This document shows positions 10,723 through 59,679 of a DNA stretch of 64,000 nucleotides, in pieces. The translations under genes and the position numbers were made by a program. Source of the DNA: a virus. How positions within the stretch are numbered: position 1 is the first letter of the stretch; every line of letters starts with the position of its first letter. The notes beneath the pieces were generated by a model that was not told the DNA's origin, searched no databases, and was given only the letters and a program-made list of their open reading frames with translations. The stretch lies in IMG/VR virus record IMGVR_UViG_2974643820_000001. One strand, written 5' to 3'.

Positions 10723-11076
10723 CTTTCGCTTCCTCTTCAGGAGCCGCAGCTTCAGGAGCCAGCTGGATATCTTCCGGCTTCACGAACCCATCGGGCGCTC
10801 CCACATATCGATGAAGCGGCGGTCGGCGGTCACAAACCAAAGACGGGCTGCAGTGTGGGTCTTACCCGAGATGAACATCTGGGCATTCGTCTGGGTGCGG
10901 AACGGAGCCGCCTGCAACCACTTACCGAAGTCTTTGGACGACGGGTTGGCATTCAGCTGGAACTGAGGGATGACGCGGTTCTCTTCAGGAATCAGGCGCA
11001 CAGCAGTAATGTGCTTGGCGTTTCCGGTGTAGTCAATTGCGACAGCCACAGCATCGCGAGGGATTTGAATTTTCAT
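10703..11076 (-). CDS. hypothetical protein, ~124 aa; probable 1-nt deletion at 10787-10789
   Basis: MKIQIPRDAV...WERPMG stops at 10780, but adding one G gives ...PMGFVKPEDIQLAPEAAAPEEEAKDEDQVG* overlapping the next gene. Confidence 0.6.
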
Positions 11077-19190: not shown

Positions 19191-19649
19191 TTATTCTTCC
19201 CAGAAGTCGTCATCGTCACCGACGGCGGCCAGTTCCGTGTCCAGGTCTTCATCACTGAATGGTGGCAGCACGCCATTCTGGATCAGATAATCCATCTCAT
19301 CGTCTTCCAGCTGCAGGTCAGTAGCAACATACAATGCTCCGCTGCCCTCTTCGTCCGTCTCGATGCTGTATGACGTGTATGCCATGCCATTCACCGTGAT
19401 GATCACCGACGTTGGATCCTCGGGATCTACGTGCGCCTCGAACGGTACACCGTCAATCGGCGCATCTTCCAGGAAGGTGGCAAGGGCTACTGCTGCGCGG
19501 ACAACATCAGTGCCTTCAACGCCAGCATAGATTTCTTCCGCGCCCGTCTCTTCACGATCAAACAGCTCAATCGTGATGCCGTCTTGAACGCCAGTCCAGA
19601 CTGGGGCGTCGCTTGGGCGTTCTGATTCAAACAATTTGGAGGTTAGCAT
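19191..19649 (-). CDS. acidic late protein, 152 aa, possibly virion-associated
   Basis: Own CTAAATACCCC late promoter at 19678-19688; GAGGA RBS. Confidence 0.8.
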   Translation of the reverse strand: MLTSKLFESERPSDAPVWTGVQDGITIELFDREETGAEEIYAGVEGTDVVRAAVALATFLEDAPIDGVPFEAHVDPEDPTSVIITVNGMAYTSYSIETDEEGSGALYVATDLQLEDDEMDYLIQNGVLPPFSDEDLDTELAAVGDDDDFWEE

Positions 19650-19677
19650 GTTGGGTTCCTCAGTGGGTTAGCCATAT

Positions 19678-19688
19678 GGGGTATTTAG
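19678..19688 (-). promoter_or_regulatory. late promoter CTAAATACCCC
   Basis: Exact recurring motif. Confidence 0.75.
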
Positions 19689-20148
19689 GCTTCCCGCTTG
19701 GCGAGGCCTGGTTTGTACAGGACGATTTCACGCACCATAGGCACCCCAGAGCGGTCCAGCACGATGGTGGAGTCATAGCCCGAGCAATTAGCGCGGCGGC
19801 GTTCTCATGGATCTTACCAGCTTCGATACCGAGGGCGCGCATTGCATCTTCCCATGCGGACACGTTGTTGGAGTCCAGTTCGAGCGGCTTGTTGACGTTG
19901 ACGTTGAACACCAGCACATGAGGTTCACCAGTCTTGCGATAGCGAACGGCGTTTTCAGCATAGCGCTGTGCCTCTTCTTCACTACCAGTCAGATAGAACC
20001 CAGGTCCCATCGTACCACAATCAGTCTGACCGAAGCGCTCAAAGTCGAAGACATCGAATTCTACGTTGGAGCCGTGAAAGAGGCGCATGTTACCGAACTT
20101 GGGTTCAGCCTCAGACGCCTCGCGGAAATATTCAAGAAAGGTTTTCAT
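19685..20148 (-). CDS. capsid-targeted H-Y-E ADP-ribosyltransferase-like protein, ~154 aa; 1-nt deletion at 19779-19781
   Basis: MKTFLEYFRE N-terminus; FHGS, GPGFYLT, AQRYA; one extra G restores ARGYDSTIVLDRSGVPMVREIVLYKP. Confidence 0.7.
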
Positions 20149-20150
20149 AG

Positions 20151-20181
20151 ATACCCCACACTGGTTGTATGGGGTATTTAG
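20151..20181 (-). promoter_or_regulatory. late promoter CTAAATACCCC with RBS-sequestering hairpin
   Basis: ATACCCCA/TGGGGTAT inverted repeat covers the GGGGT RBS. Confidence 0.75.
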
Positions 20182-20187
20182 GAGGGA

Positions 20188-21381
20188 TCAGGAAGGAGTG
20201 AAGGTGTTGACGTTCACTTCATCTGGGATAGCCAGTTCAGGGCATGCTGCCTTCATTGGCTCGATGTACGGCTTGCTACCCACGATCCAGAACAGAGTGT
20301 TCTCGTTGAGCAGCTCTGGCTTGTGTTGTTGGATCCAGGTCATGACCTTGCCTTCATAACGCGGATGCAGTTCGATATCACCCCACTGATAATCCATCAG
20401 GTCATTGTAACGAACCCAATTGGTCGTGTGAAGATCCCAATGGTGTACCTCGAAGCGAGGAAGCGTTATCTCTGGCTCGTCCTTCTGCCTGATACCACTT
20501 AGGAGGCCAGCCAGCGAAACGCTCTTAGAGGCATGCTGAAGCTCCTTCTTGCCGTGCACATAGTCTGGGTTGTCGTGATAACGACGAGTGAAGTCGACAA
20601 TGTGAGGCAGATTGGCTTGCTTGCCAATGATGCGTAGGCGGCTTTCAATGAAGTCCAGGCGGTTCGGACCAATGCCGATCAGATATACGCGCTTCAGATT
20701 AGGCTTCGGATGCATTGCCAGTCCGGTCAGGATGCTCGTGCATGAGTTGCATGAGCCAGCAGGGATAATCAGATCGGTAATATGGTCAGGGATGTTGGAA
20801 ACCTGCTCACCACCTAGCATGTGGAAACCTGCGATTCGCTCAGGGGAATGCACTGTATGGTCAAGGGTTATCCCATACTCCAGATAGTATGCCTTCCGGT
20901 TGGTCTGTTCGATGAGCTTCTTACAGCGCGGCTGGATGGTGCTGTTGTAGCCCGAGCCGACGAAGTTGAACTCACTGCCAAACCAGGCGCTCATCTCCAC
21001 CATGCCATGGTTCATGCAGGTGTTTGGTTTGGTCGCGCCCAGGACTGTGGTCGTCTTGCCGCCGAAGTGCCGAGAGACTGCCGTCGCCATAGGGGACTGC
21101 GGACTACCAACGACAGTGCCGTGGATGATGTCAGGAGAGCCTCCGGCCTTGAGGTGCTCAACCATCAGCCAGATGGCCTGGCGGAGTTTGCTGCCATTGA
21201 TGCCCTGCTGGCCATTTGCATAATTGGACAGCGGCGCAAAGTAATCTTCACGCTTGAACCAGACCTGCTGATTGGTTTCTGGGTTGGCAACGAGTTCACA
21301 CGGAGTGTGCTTGTAGAGATAATCTTCCCAGTGAACCAGGTTGCGGTCGAGGGAAAGGGTATCGAAGATGGTCTTGTTCAT
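20188..21381 (-). CDS. PLP-dependent fold-type II enzyme, probable hypermodification decarboxylase, 397 aa
   Basis: WFKREDY...GINGSKLRQ (PLP lysine) and DLIIPAGSCNS motifs. Confidence 0.8.
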   Translation of the reverse strand: MNKTIFDTLSLDRNLVHWEDYLYKHTPCELVANPETNQQVWFKREDYFAPLSNYANGQQGINGSKLRQAIWLMVEHLKAGGSPDIIHGTVVGSPQSPMATAVSRHFGGKTTTVLGATKPNTCMNHGMVEMSAWFGSEFNFVGSGYNSTIQPRCKKLIEQTNRKAYYLEYGITLDHTVHSPERIAGFHMLGGEQVSNIPDHITDLIIPAGSCNSCTSILTGLAMHPKPNLKRVYLIGIGPNRLDFIESRLRIIGKQANLPHIVDFTRRYHDNPDYVHGKKELQHASKSVSLAGLLSGIRQKDEPEITLPRFEVHHWDLHTTNWVRYNDLMDYQWGDIELHPRYEGKVMTWIQQHKPELLNENTLFWIVGSKPYIEPMKAACPELAIPDEVNVNTFTPS

Positions 21382-24233: not shown

Positions 24234-24431
24234 TTATCCGTGCTTGTTCGCTTCAATCGCCCTTAATTGGGCATCAGCGTCAGCTTTGGTGTCATGTGTC
24301 CCAAGAACCTTCGTCTTGGTGTGGTCAAGGACAACCCACTTGTCGCCTCGCCTTTCAACAAACTCGACAATCTCTTTGTTGTCAGTAGCGAGGCCATCCC
24401 ACTCAGCAATAAAATCACCGAACGTTTTCAT
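24234..24431 (-). CDS. putative internal head protein, 65 aa (MKTFGDFIAE|WDG...)
   Basis: T4 capsid-targeting-like N-terminus; own TAAATA late cassette. Confidence 0.75.
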   Translation of the reverse strand: MKTFGDFIAEWDGLATDNKEIVEFVERRGDKWVVLDHTKTKVLGTHDTKADADAQLRAIEANKHG

Positions 24432-24470
24432 CTTACTCACCAATTGTTTATTGAACAACTGGTTTATTTA
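24421..24470 (-). repeat. 50-bp late-promoter/RBS/start cassette, copy 1
   Basis: 46/50 identical to 24685-24734. Confidence 0.9.
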
Positions 24471-24695
24471 AACCCCGTACACGATGCCACGGCCTTTCGG
24501 TGTCTTACCATTACCGAACCATTTCCCTGTCATCTGAGCAGAGCCTGGTGTACTGGCAACAACAAATTCACTACCACCGTGACCTTCTTTGGTGAATTCG
24601 GCCTTTGGATTCTTCTTCAGGCAGACCTGTTTCCATTCATCAAAGTCATTGTATTCCTTGTTGGCTTCGGTCAGGAATTCTTTAAACGTTTTCAT
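24468..24695 (-). CDS. putative internal head protein, 75 aa (MKTFKEFLTE|ANK...)
   Basis: N-terminus matches T4 IPI MKTFKEF; own CTAAATA late cassette. Confidence 0.78.
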   Translation of the reverse strand: MKTFKEFLTEANKEYNDFDEWKQVCLKKNPKAEFTKEGHGGSEFVVASTPGSAQMTGKWFGNGKTPKGRGIVYGV

Positions 24696-24734
24696 GCTAC
24701 TCTCCAATTGTTTGTTGAACAACTGGTTTATTTA
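24685..24734 (-). repeat. 50-bp late-promoter/RBS/start cassette, copy 2
   Basis: 46/50 identical to 24421-24470. Confidence 0.9.
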
Positions 24735-31936: not shown

Positions 31937-31977
31937 CTAAATACCCCTAGATGACATGAACACATTTAGGGGTATTT
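31937..31977 (+). promoter_or_regulatory. late promoter CTAAATACCCC with RBS-sequestering hairpin
   Basis: AAATACCCCT/AGGGGTATTT IR upstream of the TSP4 GTG start. Confidence 0.8.
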
Positions 31978-31980
31978 GAA

Positions 31981-34900
31981 GTGGCTAACAAACCAACACA
32001 GCCTGTTTTCCCTCTCGGCCTGGGGGCTGAAGAGCAGTCTACTTTGGCTGGTATCCTCAACACGGGAACGATTGAGCATGGGCCAGATGCTGTCCTGACT
32101 TTGCCTGAGGGTAATGCTAGCGCTGGCCTCCCGTCTTCTGTTCGCTATAATGCTGACTCCGACGAATTCGAGGGCTTCTACGAAAATGGTGGATGGTTGC
32201 CGCTGGGTGGCGGTGGTATCCGCTGGGAAGCGCTTCCGCATGCCTCTACGGCAACGCTCACTGAAGGGCGGGGCTATCTGGTAGATAACTCAACCAACGT
32301 CTCTACGGTGGTGTTTCCTTCCCCTACTCGCGTGGGTGATTCTGTCACGGTCTGTGACTTGTATGGGAAGTTCTCACTGTATCCTCTGACTATCGATCCA
32401 AACGGGCGTCCAATGTATGGTTCCACAGAGCCTATGACTCTGTCCACCGACAGTGTGTCTGCGACGTTCACGTGGTCTGGCGACGCGCGTGGCTGGATTG
32501 TGACTGCTGGCGTCGGCCTTGGTCAGGGGCGCGTGTATAGTCGTACCATTTTCACAGAAACGGTTACGGCAGACACCGCTCAGGTCACTCTGACTTCACA
32601 ACCATCTATCGTGGATGTGTACGTGGATGGCAAGCGCCTGTTGGAATCCAAGTACTCTCTGGACGGGTTCAACGTCAACTTCAGTCCATCTATCCCTTCC
32701 GGCTCGGAACTCCAGGTCATCCAATACGTCCCGATCCAGTTGGGCAATGGCTCCGGCGGTTCCGGTGGCGGTACGGTTATCACTTGGATCTACAATAGTG
32801 GATCAGCTGCGGGTGGTGAAACTGAGATTGAGTTGGATGTGGATGCAGAAGATGTTTCTGAGATCTTTATCGGTGGATCCCGCCAACAGAAAGGCCTGGG
32901 CTTCACTTATGACTCAGACACCAAGATTATCTCTCTGGCAGATGAGCTGGACGCTGGGGATGAGGTTGTCGTTGTCATCAATGGCGACCCAACCCTGTAC
33001 AACCAGATCGACCGTACACCAAACGAAGTGGCGCGTTCTGCCAACGTTCCTGTGTCTCAGGTGATTCTGACTTCCGATACTATCACCAAATTGGACGGCA
33101 AAACAGTCATCTATGACGTGAACGCACAAAAGATGTGGAGCCTGCCTTCGGGCATTCCAACAGGGGCTTCTATCGTCTCGGTGAGCGGGAGCAACCTGAC
33201 CTACGCTCCTGGCAACGTCGTGGTCTCGCTGAAACCAGTTGTTGGAAGCGGCACAGATACAGATCTGAAGTACCTACCGCTGCGCCGTAATCTGTTCAAA
33301 GGCGTCGCCGACTATGTGGGAACCCCCCTGTATGACGGTAACGATCAGACACGTATCACCTTCACCGACAACACCACAGCACTCAAAGAATTTTTGCTGT
33401 CTTCAGAAAATGTTGTCAACGGGGTGAAATACGTTTACATCCCAACTGGCCATTACGGATTTGGCGGACCAAAGATCATTTTAGACCCGACCACTCTTCC
33501 GTACAAAAGTATCTTAATCTATGGTGATGGGATCGGTAAAACAATCCTGGACTACGTGAAAGAAGACAACACAGGCACTGGCAACACAGAGCAGGGGGAT
33601 AATGCTCTTGAACTTATTCGCTTTGAAGTCGGTTTCGACCTTGTGTCCTTTGTAGACGTGACAACCAAATGTACGACGAAGCACGGGTTTGTGAATGGTA
33701 TTCCATCAAGTGATCCCTCAAACTGGGCGATCTACAACGGTACTGTTTGGTTCTGCCATATCAAGCAGGCAAAACGCGTGGAACTTGATGGTGTTGAAGC
33801 GACACGTGGGAATTATCGTTGTATCAGTATTGATGGCATCTCCGACTCTTCGCCAGCAGTCACAGACCTCTTCATGAGAAACTGTATTGGTCACCACAAC
33901 ACCAGCAGCGGTTTCTGGTTGAGGGGTATTGCCCATGCCGATATCGCAGATTGCACGTTCTATCGTAATGGCACCTTGGGTGTGACTGCAACGGGTTATG
34001 GTCTGACGTTCAGCCAGTACTGCTCGAATATCAAATTGAAAAACGTTAACTCTTACGAAAACTACAGAAAAGGCATTGACAAACACGGCGGTCTGGGTAC
34101 TGTGAGCATGGAGAACGTTACGGTAGCAGACAACATCGTATTCCAGATGTCGTTTGATCATCAGTACAACGGAAAGTATGACCCAAGCACCATTACCAAT
34201 ATGATTCTGAGTGGGGTACATATTTCATTCGGCGAAAACCTTGATTTTTGTAATGAGGCATTGGCGGCGATTGATTTACAGTACAGAAACCACATCACGG
34301 TGTTGTTGAACGACAAGAACATCGATGGGACTCCGGCCAACAGACTGGGTTCAGTCGTGATGAACGATTGCTCTATCCGATATTTGCCTGGTGTGACCCA
34401 AAACTTCTACGGTTACAATGGACTGAATTGTATGGCCAGTGAACTTCGCCTGGATAATCTTAACATGGATATCCGAAACATGAAGTTGGATCGAGCAGGC
34501 AACAAAACTGTCTACACCTTCATGCCTATCACGATGGCGAGGGATAACAACACTCTGGTGATCAACGGGGGTGATTACCTAACCGGCTCCGGCAAGATGA
34601 ATGACAATACCGGAGTGGCCAGTAATGCTCTGTTTATATCTCAGGTGGCAACTGGTAGGGTTATCTCGGACAACGCGTGCTATGATATGCAAGACATGGT
34701 TCTGTTTGGTACAACTGGCGGTGGTCGCGCGTTCGCCTGGAACGGTGCCCGCAAATTGAACGGCAACACGTTCAAGTTCAGGGATATCCAAGGCAACACC
34801 CACAACATCGTCGGTTCTGGTTTCGCTTGGTTGTCTACTGCTATGATGTTCGGTGGCGGAGCAGCAACCCAATACGGTGGCAAAAACAGAGTTGGGTTCG

Positions 34901-37163: not shown

Positions 37164-37200
37164 CTAAATACCCCATATTGGCAAATCCTCTATGGGGTAT
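37164..37200 (+). promoter_or_regulatory. late promoter CTAAATACCCC with RBS-sequestering hairpin
   Basis: Perfect 10-bp IR ATACCCCATA/TATGGGGTAT. Confidence 0.8.
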
Positions 37201-37206
37201 CTTCAA

Positions 37207-39771
37207 ATGACCAGAAACGTCGAGAGCATCTTTGGAGCGGTCGTAACAGCGCCGCACCAGATTCCATACACTTACACAGCAACGGGCGGGGAGACGTTTA
37301 TCTCCCTCCCGTTCTATCCCGTTACGGGCTTTGTTACAATCAATGGTGGTGTCCAAGTTCCTGTGGACAACTATGAAATCGATGGGAACACGATCAACCT
37401 GGGTCGGACTCTGGAACCAGAAGACGTTGTATACTGTCTGTTTGACAAGATTCTGTCGCCGGAAGATTATGCAGACGGCATCCGCATCTACAAGTTCCAG
37501 GCCGTCGGTACTGAAACATCGTTCACTCCCGACTTCACCACATACGGTGTGCAGACCCTGTACATTGATGGGAAGTTCCAGGTTCCAGACATCAACTACA
37601 GCTACAGCAGCACGACGGGCACTGTGAGTTTCCTCACGGGTTCACCAACGGCTGGAGTTTGGGTTGTGGCCGAGATGTCTGTGAAGCAGCCGAATATCAG
37701 CCCTCTGTTTGACCGCACCATTCAAGAAGTCGGTCGTTCTACCAACCTGGCAGACACTGCTGTTATTCTGAGCACTGACATTGGTACTCCTCTTGATGAT
37801 AAAACTGTCATCTATGATGTTGTGGCTGAGAAGATTTATGGTCTTCCAACCCTACCTTCTAACGCCTACATCAACACCGTTTCCAACGGACAGTTAACTT
37901 ACTCTCCTGGCAACGTCACTGTGGATCTTGTGGCAATTCCAGATTCTGCCGTGAAACTTAAAGAAGAACTGGCTGAGTTTGATGGTGAATCATTAGTTGG
38001 TGTTTGCCCTACTGTTGCCATATTACGAACCACTGAACCAAAAGCTAACAAGCAACTGATCACTGTTCGCGAATACGCTGCTGATACAGGAAAGGGCGGC
38101 GGGCGTTTTCGCGCAGTATTGGACGGTTCCAGTTATACAGATAATAGTGGCACTATCATCAAGACCACAGGCGGAGCGGCGTGGATCAGGGTTAATGATG
38201 TTGTCAGTGTTACCGACTTCGGTGCAGTTTCTGACTTTAATCGAGACACCAATGTTGGTACAGATAACACTACTGCATTCCAGGCAGCAATTGATTATTG
38301 CAAAGTATCTCATAAGGCATTGTTTGTACCTTCTGGTTGGTATCTGGTGAGTGGGAATCTTACTGCTACTTACGCCATCGTTATGTATGGTGAAGGCGCG
38401 AATGGCGTGTCAATAACAACTGCTGCACAACAGGATTCTCCATTTATTGGTTCTGTTATTGTTGGCGGTAACACTACCGGGTATACACTTAATGTTAGCC
38501 CACCTAACTACCAGTTTGGTTTGTCCATTCGTAACGTTGCATTTTATGGTTTACCCGCACAACGTTCTAATGTTAACCACAAAGCATTGCGACTTCATAA
38601 CACAGGTTTACAGGGTTATGTGGAGAACGTGGCAATTTCTGGTTATGGAGGTAATGGCCTGGTTATTGGTTATCTACAAGATACCCATATTATCAGTTTG
38701 TTCATTGAACGTTGTGGTACGCTTGACGTCGCAGCTATTAAGTTTGAAGCACGAGCAAACTATGTGTACTTCCAGGATTGTCTGATGATGGCTTGCCATT
38801 ATTTTGTAGATAACACCGATGCTACTTTGTTTGGTCGTTATATTTTCTGGAGTGGATGTCATATCGAGCATGGCGACTACAACGGTGCTCTTGGTGCCGA
38901 GTGGGACTTCTACTACAACAAGACTCCGTTTAATATCGGCGCAGGCTCAGATTGGTCTTTCCAGAACTGTATCTTTATCCCAGTATCCAACTCTGGTCTG
39001 GCCACGTCTTTGGGTATTTCGCGTTTGTCAACCCCATATTTTATGGTTTGTTCTGGTGAACGTTTTAACATGGTCAATTGCCGTTTCAATGCCCCACGAG
39101 ATTCTGTATCCAGCTTAGCCCTAACTGGCCCTAACTCCAGAACAGCTATGATTACAGATACTATTTTCCAAGGTGCTGATGGTGGCCGTCCTTGTATTGA
39201 CGCCTACTACGCAGAAATCACTAACTGTACTTTCAACCTGGATATCTCGGCTTATACCGACCGTTGTTCTGGTGTGTATGTTCGTCGTGGTGGTGCAGTG
39301 AAAAGTTGTAAATTCCGTCTTGGAGCAACTACTGGTTCGCGTCGCACCCTCGGGCACTTAATCCTCACAGACGACGACCGTTATGAGGCAATTAATGTGA
39401 GTGGTAACACTTACCCAGATACCACTTATGTGAATGCCTTTGTTCACCGTGGTTGTACTATTTCTGGGGAAGATGGTGGAACCCCTCGTTTGGTTTCCAT
39501 TACTACAACCCAGAGCATTGACCTTAGCTTGTATCCAACTAACGTTAACTTCTGGGTTACTGCTGCTGTTACTATCACTGATATTCTTAATGGCCAGTAT
39601 GGTCGCAGGGTCAGCGTTATTGCCAACACTGCTGGTGCGGTGATTAATACTACTGGTAACGTTTATCCGAAGGGTAACGTTAACTACACCATGACAGCAG
39701 GCGTACCTGTTGAGTTCCGTGGAATGCTGGATATCTCTGGAAACAGAAAGATGTTCCAACTTGCTGGATAA
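37207..39771 (+). CDS. tailspike TSP2, 854 aa
   Basis: MTRNVESIFGAVVTAPHQIPY XD domains as in CBA120 TSP2; VSVTDFGAVSD beta-helix cap. Confidence 0.9.
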   Translation: MTRNVESIFGAVVTAPHQIPYTYTATGGETFISLPFYPVTGFVTINGGVQVPVDNYEIDGNTINLGRTLEPEDVVYCLFDKILSPEDYADGIRIYKFQAVGTETSFTPDFTTYGVQTLYIDGKFQVPDINYSYSSTTGTVSFLTGSPTAGVWVVAEMSVKQPNISPLFDRTIQEVGRSTNLADTAVILSTDIGTPLDDKTVIYDVVAEKIYGLPTLPSNAYINTVSNGQLTYSPGNVTVDLVAIPDSAVKLKEELAEFDGESLVGVCPTVAILRTTEPKANKQLITVREYAADTGKGGGRFRAVLDGSSYTDNSGTIIKTTGGAAWIRVNDVVSVTDFGAVSDFNRDTNVGTDNTTAFQAAIDYCKVSHKALFVPSGWYLVSGNLTATYAIVMYGEGANGVSITTAAQQDSPFIGSVIVGGNTTGYTLNVSPPNYQFGLSIRNVAFYGLPAQRSNVNHKALRLHNTGLQGYVENVAISGYGGNGLVIGYLQDTHIISLFIERCGTLDVAAIKFEARANYVYFQDCLMMACHYFVDNTDATLFGRYIFWSGCHIEHGDYNGALGAEWDFYYNKTPFNIGAGSDWSFQNCIFIPVSNSGLATSLGISRLSTPYFMVCSGERFNMVNCRFNAPRDSVSSLALTGPNSRTAMITDTIFQGADGGRPCIDAYYAEITNCTFNLDISAYTDRCSGVYVRRGGAVKSCKFRLGATTGSRRTLGHLILTDDDRYEAINVSGNTYPDTTYVNAFVHRGCTISGEDGGTPRLVSITTTQSIDLSLYPTNVNFWVTAAVTITDILNGQYGRRVSVIANTAGAVINTTGNVYPKGNVNYTMTAGVPVEFRGMLDISGNRKMFQLAG

Positions 39772-45500: not shown

Positions 45501-47340
45501 CGACTACCCTGACTGGTGAGCAGATCGTTGAAACGCAGGTTATCCCATACATGCGCAAAACGAACATCAACTTTGAAGCCACAGGCCTGCGTCCGTTTAC
45601 TCGCGTGTATCCGTTCTTCTCCGGTCGCGATGTCAGCCCGTACTGTACTCCAAACGGCGGGGCACTGGGCGGCGCGTTGAATACTGACGCCAACGGTAAC
45701 ATCAAAGGTGTGTTTGCAGTTCCTCAGAACGAGACTATCAAGTTCAACACGGGCGACAACGTCTTCCGTCTGACCGACAGTCCTGTGGACAGCAAGTCTG
45801 CTGATGATACCCTGACCAATGCCGAGGCCGTTCACAAATCCTTCGGTAAGAAACAAGGCATTCAGAAGACCTATGTCAACACTCGTGTGCTGGGCTACAC
45901 TGCGACCAAGTCTACAGAGAACAAGACCGAGACGGTTGAAGTTGCGAAGTGGAAAGACCCGATTGCTCAATCCTTCATGGTTGCTACCAACATCGGCGGC
46001 GAATACATTGAAGGTATTGAAGTGTTCTTCTCCACCAAGTCCCGCGATATCCCGATCACTCTGGAAATCCGTGAGATGAGCAATGGTCTGCCAGCGACGA
46101 CTGTGGTCACTCGTAAGACTTTGAACCCATCAGAAGTTTCCGTCTCTACAGACTCTTCTGTACCAACGATGTTCAAGTTTGATTATCCTGTGTATCTGCA
46201 GGCACAGACTGAGTTCGCGATCGTACTCCTGGCCAACACCCAAGATTACAATGCGTACATCGCGGAGATGGGTAAGAAGAACTTGCTGACCAACGAGTTC
46301 ATTGCCAAGCAGCCGTACACTGGCGTGTTCTTCACATCTTCAAACGGTACGACCTGGACTCCGAACCAGACTGCGGATATGAAGTTCCGTGTATATCGCT
46401 GCAACTTCGGTGCTGGTGATAACATCGTGACCTTCGATGCCAAAGTCGGTCCGAAGACTCGTCCTCTGGGTCTTAATGCTGTGAATTGCGTCAATGGTTC
46501 TTCAACTGTTACTGTGTACGCTCCAGGGCATGGCCTGACTGCGGGTGAAAGCGTGACATTGTCCGACCTGACGGGCGGCTGCGGGTTTACTCCAGAGCAG
46601 CTGAACATCCAGCATACTGTGACAGACGCGACGTTCACGACGTTCAAAGTGGTGCTGAGTTCTAGCGCAGACTCTGACGGCCAGATCGGCGGTGAGACGG
46701 CTTCTTTCTTGGGCAACTACTTGGTTGACATGTTCTATGCAAGTGTGACCAATTCAGCTCTGGAAGGTTCTGTGTTGAAACTGGAATACCGCTACCGCGA
46801 TGCGACCTCCAACTCATTCTCTGATTGGGCTGAGTTCGAATCCGATACGGACGTACCGCTGCCGACGGAAGGCATCTATCGTCAGGTGGGTGATTTCCAG
46901 GTGCGGGCAACCATGACTCGCAACGAAAGCAACGTGTACACGGCTCCGATGATCGACGGTGATGACTTCACTATCATCTTCAACACCTACGGTGTGGATC
47001 CGTTCGAAGACGTGTTCAGCTACGTGACCAAGGATATCGGCTTCGATAACCCTTGCACCACACTGAAGCAGTACTTCGGCGCGATGCTGCCTTCTCAGTC
47101 TTCAATGACTGTGCAGGTCAAACTGTTGCGTGCAGGTCAGGAGATGGACAATGTAGCATGGGAAACCGTGACACCGACGTCCCTCTGGTTAACGACGGTT
47201 CGACGTTCTTTGAATACGAATATGACAAGACCGTGGACAGCACCAACCCGTTTGTTGGCCTGAAGATCCGCCTGCTGGTGAGAGGCAACCGTACAGCGCC
47301 GCCATCATTCAAAGATTTCCGTTTGATTGCTCTGGCATAA
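42503..47340 (+). CDS. vrlC: VrlC-like large baseplate protein, ~1612 aa; 1-nt deletion at 47181-47183
   Basis: LNRRPYWDD...VQTRELNQMQ N-terminus; one extra C restores TPTSPLVNDGSTFFEYEY...PPSFKDFRLIALA. Confidence 0.88.
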
Positions 47341-57776: not shown

Positions 57777-58082
57777 ATGGAAATCGAAGAAGTTGCGACA
57801 TTCGCTGATTTCCTGGCTTCCCGCATGGACGAGCAGAAAGTCATTGACAAGGTGAATGCAAAAGGTAAACGCCGCCGCCGCCTGCAATGTGCTCCTGGTT
57901 TCAAATTGTCTGCAGATGGTTCTCGTTGTGAGGTTATGGTTGCCAGTGAGCGCCGTACTCGCAAGCTGGGCAACCGCAAGGCAATCCGAGCCAAGAAACG
58001 CATGGGCATGGGCTACAATCGCAAGATTGAGCGTCGTAAGAAGAAAGCGATGAAGTTCCGCAAAATGATGGGACTGAGTTAA
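57777..58082 (+). CDS. prohead core protein (gp68-like), 101 aa
   Basis: Basic C-terminus; T4 gene order. Confidence 0.8.
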   Translation: MEIEEVATFADFLASRMDEQKVIDKVNAKGKRRRRLQCAPGFKLSADGSRCEVMVASERRTRKLGNRKAIRAKKRMGMGYNRKIERRKKKAMKFRKMMGLS

Positions 58083-58089
58083 GGAGCGA

Positions 58090-58758
58090 ATGATGAAACT
58101 GTTGCGTGAGATCACGGCGATAGGGAAAGACCTCCAAATCGGTGAAAGCACCACCTCCACTGGGGGTAAGGCTATGTTCATCGAAGGTCCATTCGTGATG
58201 TGTAATCAGGTGAACCGTAATGGACGCAACTACGATCTCCAGAAAGTGGGCATGCCAGCTGTCGAAGCATATGACAAAGAGTATGTTCAAGATCGTCGCG
58301 CAATCGGTGAACTCAAACATCCCGACTACCCTTTCCCAGATATTGCTGAAGCTGCGCTGAAGACCGAGAGCCTCCGTTGGGAGGGCACGAACGCAATCGG
58401 TCGAGCGCGTGTGCTAAATACACCAAAAGGCCAGATCATTCGTGCTCTGGCTGAAGCAGACTTCAACTTGGCCGTGTCTACACGTGGCCTTGGTGAGACC
58501 AAGTCAGTAAACGGTTATGATGACGTTCAACCTGGCTTTATGCTCACTGCTGTTGATGCAGTCGACCGTCCTTCTGGACAAGTTTGTTATGTAAAGGCTG
58601 TGAGCGAATCTGTTGAATGGCAGCTTGATGAATCTTCAGGGATTTGGGTTCCTAAGGACATCAAAGGGCAAGTGGTCGATTCATTGGTGAAAACCAATAT
58701 TCAGTTCGAAGACGACTTCCTGCGCCGCCTCGATATCGCATTGAGACATCTGGGCTGA
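58090..58758 (+). CDS. gp21: prohead protease gp21
   Basis: NRNGRNY; AIGELKHP; VSTRGLG; DAVDRPS motifs. Confidence 0.95.
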   Translation: MMKLLREITAIGKDLQIGESTTSTGGKAMFIEGPFVMCNQVNRNGRNYDLQKVGMPAVEAYDKEYVQDRRAIGELKHPDYPFPDIAEAALKTESLRWEGTNAIGRARVLNTPKGQIIRALAEADFNLAVSTRGLGETKSVNGYDDVQPGFMLTAVDAVDRPSGQVCYVKAVSESVEWQLDESSGIWVPKDIKGQVVDSLVKTNIQFEDDFLRRLDIALRHLG

Positions 58759-58803: not shown

Positions 58804-59679
58804 ATGAAACCTGAATTGCAAAAACTGTTTGAGGGCGTTAACGGCCTCAGCACCGACTTCCTGGATAAAGTGTCCGGTCTGCTGGAATCTAAAGTAGAAG
58901 CCGCTCGCCTGACCGCTATTCAAGAAACCGAAAACGCTGCCAACGTTGAGCGCCTGCGTCTGGTTGAAGCTCATCAGTCTGAGATTGCTCAGCTGAAAGA
59001 GTCTCACTTGATGGAGATCGCAACCAAAGTTGACAGCTTCCTGAACGCTGTTGTAGAAGAGTGGGCTAACACCAACGCTCCTGCAATCGATGCTCAGATC
59101 AAGCGTGAAGCAGCTGAAAACCTGCTGACTGGCCTGACTGGCGTTCTGAAAGAAGCTGGTATCAACTTTGCGACTGACGAAAACGGCCAGATCGCTGCGC
59201 TGACTGCCCGCCTGACTGAAGCAGAACAACGTGCTGCGGCTGCTGAAAGCGAAAACCGTCAAATCAAAGAAGCCGCGAATGCAACTCTGCGCGACTCTGT
59301 GATCACCCGTATCTGTGAAGGTATGGTCGACACCAAGAAAGCAACGGTTGTCAATCTGCTGGAAGCGGTGCAGTTCACCACCGAAAGCGAATTCGCTTCC
59401 CGCGTACACACCTTCCGCAACCTGGTAGAAGGTAAGTCCGCGAAGAAAGAAGGCGATGACGATGACTTCCAGGACAAAGTCGGCGGCAAAGACGGTGACG
59501 ACGACAATAAAGACAAAGGCGACAAAGACAAAGTCGACGAAGGCAAAAAGCCTAAGAAAGAAGGCGATGACGACAAAGACGATGATAAAGACGATGAAGA
59601 TGAAACAGACAAAGAGCTGAAAGAATCTATCAAGCGTCAGTTGGAAGACTACAATCGTCGCTTCGGCATCAACGGCTAA
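58804..59679 (+). CDS. gp22: prohead scaffold gp22, 291 aa
   Basis: Helical, acidic linker; CTAAATA promoter at 58770-58776; T4 gene order. Confidence 0.9.
   Translation: MKPELQKLFEGVNGLSTDFLDKVSGLLESKVEAARLTAIQETENAANVERLRLVEAHQSEIAQLKESHLMEIATKVDSFLNAVVEEWANTNAPAIDAQIKREAAENLLTGLTGVLKEAGINFATDENGQIAALTARLTEAEQRAAAAESENRQIKEAANATLRDSVITRICEGMVDTKKATVVNLLEAVQFTTESEFASRVHTFRNLVEGKSAKKEGDDDDFQDKVGGKDGDDDNKDKGDKDKVDEGKKPKKEGDDDKDDDKDDEDETDKELKESIKRQLEDYNRRFGING

What the first reader, a model, noticed from the sequence alone, without database searches (positions are those of the whole stretch)
19685..20181. Capsid-targeted H-Y-E ADP-ribosyltransferase hidden by a frameshift: a putative injected effector
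Seen: a late CTAAATACCCC promoter with an RBS-blocking hairpin; N-terminus MKTFLEYFRE|A; FHGS...GPGFYLT...AQRYA; and, after restoring one G, RGYDSTIV...VREIVLYKP. Known: T4 internal proteins start with a capsid-targeting sequence (MKTYQEFIAE, MKTFKEF) that gp21 removes after Glu. H-Y-E is the diphtheria toxin/PARP-clade ART triad, whereas T4 injects Alt, an R-S-E clade ART. Inference: this phage packages and injects a different, compact ART that modifies a host protein or nucleic acid at infection, possibly disarming defence. The late-only lock fits a toxic enzyme.
Basis: partly seen in the sequence, partly recalled or inferred. Interest (0 to 1): 0.8.

Follow-up and report, generated by a model that had tools for sequence, protein, structure and literature searches.

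The report
Virion ADP-ribosyltransferase with T4-type packaging leader
This ViI-like (Ackermannviridae) phage carries a small late gene for an ADP-ribosyltransferase with the N-terminal leader that phage T4 uses to load proteins into its head, so the enzyme is probably packaged and injected. The frameshift that "hides" it is most likely an assembly error.

Summary
On the minus strand, 19685-20181 carries a CTAAATACCCC late-promoter motif, an 11-bp hairpin ending 2 nt before the ATG, and an ORF starting MKTFLEYFRE. It has the HGS, Y-X10-Y and VREIVLY motifs and lacks one base in a G run (19779-19781).

- **Enzyme:** It passes Pfam ART-PolyVal. An AlphaFold model of an intact homologue matches diphtheria-toxin, PARP and tankyrase catalytic domains. 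H25, Y52 and E141 are invariant in 23 homologues.
- **Virion:** The LIMEstone1 homologue (ORF173) was found in virions by published mass spectrometry, from one peptide.
- **Leader:** MKTF-x-[ED]-[FY]-x-x-E also heads unrelated small late ORFs here and in relatives. The window encodes a T4 gp21-type prohead protease.
- **Frameshift:** All four coding frameshifts against phage P46FS4 are C4/G4 to C3/G3 losses. One hits a 1612-aa virion protein whose tail stays 100% identical, so an assembly error is likely.
- **Hairpin:** The same design precedes two large ORFs whose relatives are annotated tail-spike or structural genes, so it is not a toxin-specific lock.
- **Loss:** The body is deleted in Agtrevirus and frameshifted in a Dickeya-phage clade.

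Injection, cleavage, activity and target are untested.

The parts
20171..20181 (-). Late-promoter motif CTAAATACCCC. Its last 7 bases form the start of the hairpin's 5' arm.
   Evidence: 6 matches in the window against 0.53 expected. LIMEstone1 annotates a putative late promoter at the same place before ORF173.
20151..20177 (-). 11-bp hairpin AUACCCCAUAC / GUGUGGGGUAU with a 5-nt loop. The 3' arm holds the GGGG(U) Shine-Dalgarno-like stretch 4 nt upstream of the ATG.
   Evidence: -18.1 kcal/mol, z -3.6; the stem is identical in 15 of 15 homologous loci from several genera while the loop varies (AACCA, AATCC, AGCAA, AGTAA, GACCA); a transcript starting 6 nt after TAAATA would lack 8 of the 11 bases of the 5' arm.
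20119..20148 (-). Codons 1-10, MKTFLEYFRE: the T4 internal-protein-type N-terminal leader (candidate capsid-targeting sequence) with a candidate cleavage site after E10.
   Evidence: T4 ipI, ipII and ipIII N-termini. (M1, T3 and F4 invariant; K2 and L5 near-invariant). (residues 4-14 form a helix). (structural matches start at residues 9-19).
19782..20118 (-). ART core, N-terminal two thirds (residues 11-122). H25 codon at 20074-20076, Y52 at 19993-19995, and Y63 giving the Y-X10-Y spacing.
   Evidence: PF18760 at 39.4 bits against a cut-off of 31.2, profile positions 7-75; invariant residues.
19779..19781 (-). GGG run where the window is one base shorter than all intact relatives. The reading frame breaks here.
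   Evidence: CTC-GGGCT against CTCAGGGCT, CTCGGGGAT and CCCAGGGTT; the same type of loss occurs at 10790, 13181 and 47182.
19685..19780 (-). ART core, C-terminal third in the shifted frame (GYDS...VREIVLYKPGLAKREA, then stop). Glu codon at 19727-19729; stop codon at 19685-19687.
   Evidence: There are no stop codons in this frame. Against CAU_YEP3 the differences are mostly synonymous.
19678..19688 (-). Second CTAAATACCCC motif, overlapping the stop codon. It is the late-promoter motif for the downstream acidic virion protein gene.
19191..19649 (-). Downstream neighbour: a 152-aa, very acidic protein. Its homologue is also a confirmed virion protein. It is kept even where the ART body is deleted.
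   Evidence: LIMEstone1 ORF174, pI 4.05; phrog_3852; P46FS4 ORF201.
24234..24734 (-). Two tandem small late ORFs (65 aa MKTFGDFIAE, 75 aa MKTFKEFLTE). They carry the same leader behind a duplicated promoter and UTR, and sit among tRNA genes.
   Evidence: The 65-aa protein is conserved, with the leader, in the three relatives where the pattern matched it (P46FS4 and two IMG/VR genomes).
58093..58758 (+). T4 gp21-type prohead serine protease, the enzyme that would remove the leader.
   Evidence: PF03420 Peptidase_S77, 106.6 bits, cut-off 27; 99.5% identical to the P46FS4 head maturation protease.
58804..59679 (+). T4 gp22-type scaffolding core protein, the structure that T4 leaders target.
   Evidence: PF25623 T4_CASP, 145.9 bits.

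Best explanation
The gene encodes a compact (about 154 aa), standalone ADP-ribosyltransferase of the ART-PolyVal family. Its fold and His-Tyr-Glu motifs are of the diphtheria-toxin/PARP type.

Proposed mechanism, with shown and inferred steps marked:
1. It is transcribed late from a CTAAATACCCC promoter (motif shown; use inferred).
2. Its first 10 or so residues are a T4 internal-protein-type capsid-targeting leader. The leader directs it into the scaffolding core of the prohead (inferred).
3. The phage's gp21-type protease probably trims it after Glu10 (inferred).
4. The mature enzyme stays in the head and enters the host with the DNA (virion presence published for a homologue; entry inferred).
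5. In the cell it uses NAD+ to modify a host protein or nucleic acid early in infection (inferred).

It is an accessory function. It is conserved in most Ackermannviridae but has been lost in some lineages. The one-base break in this window is most likely a homopolymer assembly error, not biology. The promoter-in-hairpin arrangement would keep read-through transcripts untranslated, but it is a general design of late genes in this phage.
For: Fold and family:
- PF18760 scores 39.4 bits for the broken gene and 41-47 bits for intact homologues, against a cut-off of 31.2.
- The AlphaFold2 model of intact homologue P0007 has pLDDT 84.7 and pTM 0.77.
- Foldseek top hits are ART folds: MbcT, AcrIF11 (6kyf), PARP4 and tankyrase.
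- H25-G-S, Y52-X10-Y63 and E141 are invariant in 23 homologues. Glu is kept in five more distant standalone homologues.

Family context: 1289 relatives at E<=0.001, mostly multi-copy domains inside 1000-7000-aa proteins. This is the protein class Iyer et al. predict to be virion-delivered (PMC5512222).

Virion presence: LIMEstone1 ORF173, the homologue, is a confirmed structural protein by ESI-MS/MS. That paper also states that all 12 LIMEstone1 structural proteins of unknown function have structural counterparts in ViI (PMC3296691).

Leader:
- It matches the T4 ipI, ipII and ipIII N-termini.
- It lies outside the ART fold.
- The same leader heads unrelated late ORFs of 65, 75, 73 and 188 aa. 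There were 9 pattern hits in 4 genomes against 0 for the reversed control.
- Distant standalone ARTs start MKTFEQFLKE, MLTFEAYLAE and MKTFLEYITE. The last is followed by another MKT-leader ORF.

Machinery: Peptidase_S77 and T4_CASP are encoded in the window. The capsid protein has an NLGE-S site of the hydrophobic-x-Glu type.

Frameshift as artefact: four of four coding frameshifts against P46FS4 are C4/G4 to C3/G3. One lies in the 1612-aa virion protein, whose last 52 aa are 100% identical in the shifted frame at 86% DNA identity. 57 of 60 sampled records have an unbroken gene.
Against: - Virion evidence is thin: one peptide and 11.8% coverage. The same study also detected rIIB, ligase, PhoH and gp44 at low coverage.
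- There are no N-terminal peptide data, so cleavage is unproven. Glu10 is missing in 5 of 23 homologues, and P3 is Phe here rather than Leu or Ile.
- No activity or target data exist for any member of the family.
- In the wider ART-PolyVal family the Glu column varies (E, Q, T) while the Asp of GYD is invariant. The family was described as H-Y-D. I could not inspect a residue-level superposition.
- The frameshift could be real. Real losses occur in close relatives, and no sequencing run holding this isolate was found.
Confidence: 0.55

Rival explanations
1. The frameshift is genuine. In this isolate the gene is a recent pseudogene that makes a 162-aa product with the NAD-binding half but without the strand carrying the Glu. 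This would be one more case of the recurrent loss of this accessory gene.
For: Real losses exist nearby:
- The ART body is deleted in Agtrevirus (P46FS4, Ag3, SKML-39, MK-13 and others).
- A different +1 insertion is shared by four independently isolated Dickeya phages: Kamild, Ds3CZ, Ds20CZ and Ds25CZ.
- Salmonella phage 38 is split and SPHG3 is partial.
- No reads were available to check this isolate.
Against: - The window carries three more identical-type homopolymer losses in conserved ORFs. One is in a 1612-aa virion protein (the LIMEstone1 'Structural protein, 177.55 kDa' recovered with 21 peptides is probably its counterpart) whose shifted tail is 100% conserved.
- The shifted ART tail has no stop codons and mostly synonymous differences from relatives.
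Confidence: 0.27
2. The enzyme is a late intracellular ART that acts in the producing cell, for example on host or phage proteins or on NAD+ pools. It is not specifically packaged. The mass-spectrometry hit is carry-over, and the MKTF start is only a family-specific N-terminus.
For: - Only one peptide was recovered, in a study that also recovered clearly non-structural proteins.
- Glu10 is not universal.
- The hairpin and promoter design is generic for late genes.
Against: - The leader is shared by unrelated late ORFs and by distant ART homologues.
- It lies outside the catalytic fold.
- It matches the T4 leaders, in a phage that has the T4-type protease and scaffold.
- The source paper reports virion counterparts in ViI for all its structural proteins of unknown function.
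Confidence: 0.2
3. The protein is packaged, but it is not a classical protein mono-ART. Either it is an NAD+ glycohydrolase or phosphorylase (as in RES/MbcT), or it modifies nucleic acid, or it disables one host defence protein as AcrIF11 does.
For: - The top Foldseek hits include MbcT (6fkg) and AcrIF11 (6kyf), with E about 6e-5 to 9e-5.
- The gene is accessory and repeatedly lost, as counter-defence genes often are.
Against: - TM-scores are only 0.4-0.5.
- Diphtheria toxin, PARPs and tankyrases score as well or better by Z.
- HGS, Y-X10-Y and Glu are the signature of transferases.
- No data discriminate between targets.
Confidence: 0.15
4. The break is a programmed -1 ribosomal frameshift or transcriptional slippage site that regulates production of the full enzyme.
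For: The break lies in a short G run, and the shifted frame is open to the conserved stop.
Against: - There is no X_XXY_YYZ slippery heptamer; the site reads T_CGG_GCT.
- Three G is too short for slippage.
- All other homologues encode the protein in one frame.
Confidence: 0.02

Closest known systems
ART-PolyVal domain (Pfam PF18760), the ADP-ribosyltransferase domain of phage and conjugative-element polyvalent proteins (Iyer et al. 2017, PMC5512222)
   Same: - The HMM match is above the curated cut-off.
- The nearest relatives outside Ackermannviridae are multi-copy domains in 1000-7000-aa proteins.
- Shared motifs: HG[ST], GxGFY and GYD.
- The family is predicted to be delivered with the virion.
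   Different: - This protein is standalone, about 150 aa.
- It carries a T4-type N-terminal leader instead of being fused into a giant protein.
- The third catalytic position is an invariant Glu here, whereas the family was described as H-Y-D and its relatives show E, Q or T.
Phage T4 Alt, the head-packaged, injected ADP-ribosyltransferase
   Same: - Both are made late, packaged in the head of a phage with a gp21/gp22-type assembly system, and non-essential.
- Both are thought to act at the start of infection (PMC5512222, PMC9503650).
   Different: - Alt belongs to the R-S-E (Alt/VIP2) clade and is far larger (size from my own knowledge). This protein is H-Y-E type and about 150 aa.
- There is no sequence or Pfam relationship.
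T4 internal proteins IPI, IPII and IPIII and their capsid-targeting sequence
   Same: - The N-terminus MKT[FY]-x-E-[FY]-hydrophobic-x-E is shared. T4 ipII and ipIII start MKTYQEFIAE and ipI starts MKTFKEF.
- The cargo behind a conserved leader is unrelated between proteins.
- The cassettes are tandem and lie next to tRNA genes.
- A gp21-family protease is present.
   Different: - The cargo here is an enzyme, not a small basic DNA-associated protein or a restriction inhibitor.
- Neither packaging nor cleavage has been shown in this phage family.
Diphtheria toxin catalytic domain and PARP/tankyrase catalytic domains (H-Y-E ARTs)
   Same: - The HG[ST] motif, Y-X10-Y spacing and a Glu in a late strand are all present.
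   Different: - Sequence identity is only 14-22%, and there was no sequence-level PDB hit.
- It has no translocation, receptor or regulatory domains.
- It is a phage protein acting in bacteria.
AcrIF11, a small phage ART that ADP-ribosylates a CRISPR Cascade subunit
   Same: Small standalone phage ART. It is among the top Foldseek hits (6kyf, E 8.6e-5).
   Different: TM-score is only 0.40-0.44. There is no evidence that AcrIF11 is packaged. A target relationship was not tested.

Membership tests
ART-PolyVal (PF18760) | Pfam HMM score above the gathering threshold | tested here: met
   39.4 bits for the window ORF and 41.1-47.2 bits for intact homologues, against a cut-off of 31.2. All 21 database homologues carry a precomputed PF18760 annotation.
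ART-PolyVal (PF18760) | Active-site His (strand 1), Tyr (strand 2) and an acidic residue (described as Asp, strand 5) | tested here: inconclusive
   His and Tyr are invariant. The window family has an invariant Glu141 at the column where polyvalent relatives show E, Q or T. The Asp of GYD is invariant in all 18 aligned sequences. Which acid the published 'D' refers to could not be settled.
ART-PolyVal (PF18760) | Domain embedded in a large multidomain (polyvalent) protein | tested here: not met
   Standalone 149-156-aa proteins. Most distant relatives are 1000-7000 aa.
H-Y-E (diphtheria toxin/PARP) clade of ARTs | ART fold with closest structural neighbours in this clade | tested here: met
   [not shown]
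H-Y-E (diphtheria toxin/PARP) clade of ARTs | HG[ST] motif, Y-X10-Y pair and catalytic Glu | tested here: met
   H25-G26-S27, Y52 and Y63, and E141 are invariant in 23 sequences. Equivalence of E141 to toxin Glu148 is inferred from the aligned ranges only.
H-Y-E (diphtheria toxin/PARP) clade of ARTs | NAD+-dependent ADP-ribosyl transfer | not testable with these tools
   Needs an enzyme assay.
T4-type internal (head-packaged) proteins | N-terminal capsid-targeting leader shared by unrelated cargo proteins | tested here: met
   MKTFLEYFRE against T4 MKTYQEFIAE and MKTFKEF. The same leader is on 65-, 75-, 73- and 188-aa ORFs. There were 9 hits in 4 genomes against 0 for the reversed control.
T4-type internal (head-packaged) proteins | Cleavage site (hydrophobic-x-Glu) at the end of the leader, and a gp21-family protease in the genome | tested here: inconclusive
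   The protease is present (PF03420, 106.6 bits). F-R-E followed by A is present here, and L-x-E in many homologues, but 5 of 23 lack Glu10. No N-terminal peptide data exist.
T4-type internal (head-packaged) proteins | Physical presence in the virion head and ejection into the host | not testable with these tools
   The literature gives only one peptide for LIMEstone1 ORF173 in whole virions (PMC3296691). Head location and ejection have not been shown.
T4-type internal (head-packaged) proteins | Late transcription | tested here: inconclusive
   The motif is enriched and is annotated as a putative late promoter in LIMEstone1. No transcript mapping was available.
Alt/VIP2 (R-S-E) ARTs | R-S-E active site and homology to Alt, ModA and ModB | tested here: not met
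   No such Pfam hit was found. The only hits are PF18760 and, just below its threshold, DUF3990. The motifs are H-Y-E.

The most novel reading that the evidence does not exclude
Ackermannviridae use a T4-type capsid-targeting leader to load a changeable set of unrelated cargo into the head: this H-Y-E ART plus several small proteins. The ART would be an injected counter-defence or host-takeover enzyme. Its repeated deletion or inactivation (Agtrevirus, the Kamild clade) would reflect hosts in which it is useless or is sensed. The leader cassette would then be a portable packaging tag usable far outside the T-even phages.
Probability: 0.3. Interest if true: 0.7.

Novelty: new variant of a known kind. 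Interest (0 to 1): 0.5.

Why it matters
Ackermannviridae (the ViI, CBA120, Det7 and LIMEstone group) are widely used biocontrol and therapy phages, and what they inject besides DNA is essentially unknown.

If this reading is right, it would be a second, mechanistically different case next to T4 Alt. It would also show that the T4 packaging tag works in a distant family, and it would give a defined enzyme and leader for direct tests.

The practical message for this window is more sober. The frameshift is probably one of several homopolymer errors in the assembly. The gene should be annotated as intact or "frameshift, possible sequencing error", not as two hypothetical ORFs.

Tried and rejected
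- **Raw reads:** no public run holds more than 36% of the sampled words of 19300-20700, so all are relatives only. Read laying was not used, and the frameshift could not be checked in reads.
- **Whole genome:** none is held for this window.
- **PDB sequence search:** a profile of the family found only chance hits with E >= 0.075.
- **Cyanophage A4 paper:** it does not mention any ART domain in the chain that matches structurally, so that match adds no functional annotation.
- **Literature for the late-promoter consensus:** a full-text search for CTAAATA returned only irrelevant papers. The CBA120 paper states that the late consensus was then unknown. The transcription start used in the hairpin argument is therefore taken by analogy with T4.
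- **Literature on Ackermannviridae plus ADP-ribosyltransferase:** nothing specific to this gene was found.
- **PHROGs:** only families of unknown function were returned.
- **First structure submission:** It was repeated with database proteins only.
- **Programmed frameshifting:** considered and rejected, because there is no slippery site and no conservation of the break.
- **Repaired sequence:** none was built. All searches and folds used natural intact homologues.

Full report
**What phage and what gene**

The window belongs to an Ackermannviridae (ViI-like) phage of subfamily Aglimvirinae. The region around the finding is 91.5% identical to Dickeya phage Kamild. A 24-kb stretch is about 89-90% identical to Agtrevirus phages Gloob, P46FS4, MK-13 and Ag3.

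The feature lies on the minus strand, in this order:
- the motif CTAAATACCCC at 20171-20181;
- a hairpin at 20151-20177;
- an ATG at 20148;
- an ORF that as written runs to 19660 (162 aa).

**Observation**

The protein starts MKTFLEYFRE followed by A, then has FHGS, GPGFYLT and AQRYA.

Aligned with three relatives, the window is exactly one base short in the G run at 19779-19781. From 19780 the other frame reads GYDSTIV...VREIVLYKPGLAKREA. It stops at 19685-19687, inside a second CTAAATACCCC motif that precedes the next gene.

The motif occurs 6 times with up to 1 mismatch, against 0.53 expected. In LIMEstone1 it is annotated as a putative late promoter at both of these positions.

**It is an ADP-ribosyltransferase**

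- The broken ORF already passes Pfam ART-PolyVal (39.4 bits, cut-off 31.2), but only over profile positions 7-75. Intact homologues match through position 112-127.
- Twenty-one database proteins of 149-156 aa, plus the JA15 and CAU_YEP3 proteins, align end to end.
- Invariant residues are H25-G26 (with near-invariant S27), G48, G50-F-Y52-L-T-G, Y63 (Y-X10-Y), G124, D126 and E141.
- An AlphaFold2 model of the closest intact homologue has pLDDT 84.7.
- Foldseek returns only ART folds at the top: MbcT, AcrIF11, PARP4, tankyrase and PARP2.
- The aligned ranges are compatible with H25, Y52 and E141 matching toxin H21, Y54 and E148. I could not inspect the residue-level superposition.

A profile search of 1.8 billion representatives finds 1289 relatives. 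Most are repeated domains inside proteins of 1000-7000 aa. These are the "polyvalent proteins" that Iyer et al. predicted to be carried in virions (PMC5512222).

In those relatives the Glu column is E, Q or T, while the Asp of GYD is invariant. The family was published as H-Y-D. The window's subfamily is therefore an H-Y-E variant of that family.

**Virion association and the leader**

The LIMEstone1 homologue is ORF173, 17.33 kDa, which matches my own calculation from its sequence. It is listed as a structural protein confirmed by ESI-MS/MS, from one unique peptide at 11.84% coverage. So is its acidic neighbour ORF174. The authors state that all 12 of their structural proteins of unknown function have structural counterparts in ViI (PMC3296691).

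This evidence is real but thin. The same table lists rIIB, ligase, PhoH and gp44.

The leader argument is stronger:
- T4 ipII and ipIII begin MKTYQEFIAE followed by A, and ipI begins MKTFKEF. I read these from the T4 record.
- In the model, residues 4-14 are a separate helix, and every structural match starts at residues 9-19.
- The window has two more ORFs with this start: 24468-24695 (MKTFKEFLTE, 75 aa) and 24234-24431 (MKTFGDFIAE, 65 aa). Each follows a duplicated TAAATAAACC promoter and UTR among tRNA genes.
- A degenerate DNA pattern for MKTF-x-[EDQH]-[FY] gives 9 hits in four related genomes and none for the reversed control. The hits include unrelated 73- and 188-aa proteins in Klebsiella phage May.
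- More distant standalone ARTs begin MKTFEQFLKE, MLTFEAYLAE and MKTFLEYITE. The last is followed directly by another ORF starting MKTIQEF.
- The window encodes the T4-type prohead protease (Peptidase_S77, 106.6 bits) and scaffold (T4_CASP) at 58.1-59.7 kb.

Against a uniform cleavage model, five of 23 homologues have no Glu at position 10.

**The frameshift**

I compared the window with P46FS4 over about 60 kb. There are four frameshifts in conserved ORFs: 10790, 13181, 19780 and 47182. All four are a run of four C or G in the relative against three in the window.

The one at 47182 cuts a 1612-aa virion protein. Its last 52 residues remain 100% identical in the shifted frame although the DNA is only 86% identical there. 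That frame is therefore still under selection.

The shifted ART tail likewise has no stop codons and mostly synonymous differences from relatives.

In a spread sample of 60 of the 220 phage records that carry the gene, 57 have it unbroken.

I conclude that the break is probably a homopolymer assembly error, at about 70%. No run containing this isolate exists in the index, so this remains unproven.

**Real losses do occur**

- In Agtrevirus (P46FS4, SW16-7, SP-9-14, SKML-39, MK-13, ChubbyThor, Ag3, PC3, PH4, A221, ZQ1 and others) the ART body is deleted. What remains is the promoter, the hairpin, the ten leader codons and the last 13 codons, forming a 23-aa ORF. The junction lies at a CGTGAG microhomology.
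- A different +1 insertion is shared by Kamild, Ds3CZ, Ds20CZ and Ds25CZ.

The gene is therefore accessory and is lost repeatedly.

**The hairpin**

The 11-bp stem (-18.1 kcal/mol, z -3.6) is identical in 15 of 15 homologous loci from several genera, while the loop varies. There is no covariation to prove an RNA structure.

Its 5' arm begins inside the promoter motif. If transcription starts about 6 nt after TAAATA, as at T4 late promoters (established knowledge, not tested here), late transcripts lack most of the 5' arm. Only read-through transcripts could then hide the GGGG(U) ribosome-binding stretch. This is the arrangement known for T4 genes e, soc and I-TevI.

The same ATACCCC...GGGGTAT design follows the promoters at 31937 and 37164. 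These precede ORFs of 1109 and 859 aa that map, by position, to P46FS4 ORF1 (annotated hypothetical) and a tail-spike gene. It is therefore a general late-gene device and says nothing about toxicity.

**Verdict**

- The enzyme assignment is secure.
- Virion association is supported by published data on a homologue.
- Head targeting by a T4-type leader is well supported by comparative evidence but is unproven.
- Injection, activity and target are inference.
- The "hidden by a frameshift" element is most likely an artefact.

Some records already label the gene "ADP-ribose transferase" or "structural protein". I found no paper that connects the ART, the leader and the virion data.

Noticed in passing
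window 10790, 13181, 19779-19781, 47182: Four single-base losses in C4 or G4 runs, each breaking an ORF that is intact in P46FS4. One of them is a 1612-aa virion protein. The pattern suggests systematic homopolymer under-calling in this assembly, so other 'split' genes in the window should be read with that in mind.
   Followed up: yes
L020:24525-24675 (P46FS4); also Ag3, SKML-39, MK-13, SW16-7, ChubbyThor, PC3, A221 and ZQ1: Agtrevirus phages carry a clean deletion of the ART body. It leaves the promoter, hairpin, leader and C-terminal tail as a 23-aa ORF (MKTFLEYFRE-IVLYKPGLAVREA), with the junction at a CGTGAG microhomology.
   Followed up: yes
L002 (Kamild) and records Ds3CZ, Ds20CZ, Ds25CZ: A different +1 G insertion early in the ART gene splits Kamild's gene. 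Three other Dickeya phages (Ds3CZ, Ds20CZ, Ds25CZ) show the same two-piece match, so the break is probably inherited rather than a sequencing error.
   Followed up: partly
window 31937-31983 (+) and 37164-37210 (+): Two more CTAAATACCCC promoters are followed by an inverted repeat ATACCCC...GGGGTAT ending just before the start codon of a large ORF. The promoter-in-hairpin arrangement looks like a general late-gene device, and may explain the 'cCcc' part of the promoter consensus.
   Followed up: partly
window 24234-24734 (-): Two tandem leader cassettes (65 and 75 aa) sit behind a duplicated promoter and UTR among tRNA genes, like the T-even ipI locus. The 65-aa protein is conserved, with its leader, in P46FS4 and two related IMG/VR genomes.
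   Followed up: partly
window 19191-19649 (-): A 152-aa, very acidic protein (homologue pI about 4.05; D/E-rich C-terminus) has its own late promoter. Its LIMEstone1 homologue is a confirmed virion protein, and it is retained where the ART is deleted. It could be a packaged DNA mimic or partner protein. Its function is unknown.
   Followed up: no
window 20188-21381 (-): The upstream 397-aa protein is a PLP-dependent enzyme (weak PALP hit, phrog_3650). It is annotated elsewhere as threonine ammonia-lyase. From general knowledge of ViI-type thymidine hypermodification it may belong to that pathway. This was not tested.
   Followed up: no
window 57777-58079 (+): A 101-aa, extremely basic protein (Arg/Lys-rich) lies between the portal and prohead protease genes. 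Its acidic N-terminus ends in ...FLASRMDE followed by Q. It looks like a processed internal or core protein.
   Followed up: no
L031:50-636: A low-GC metagenomic contig has a standalone ART (starting MKTFLEYITE) followed, with overlapping stop and start codons, by another ORF starting MKTIQEF. The ART-plus-leader arrangement therefore seems to exist outside the known Ackermannviridae genera.
   Followed up: partly
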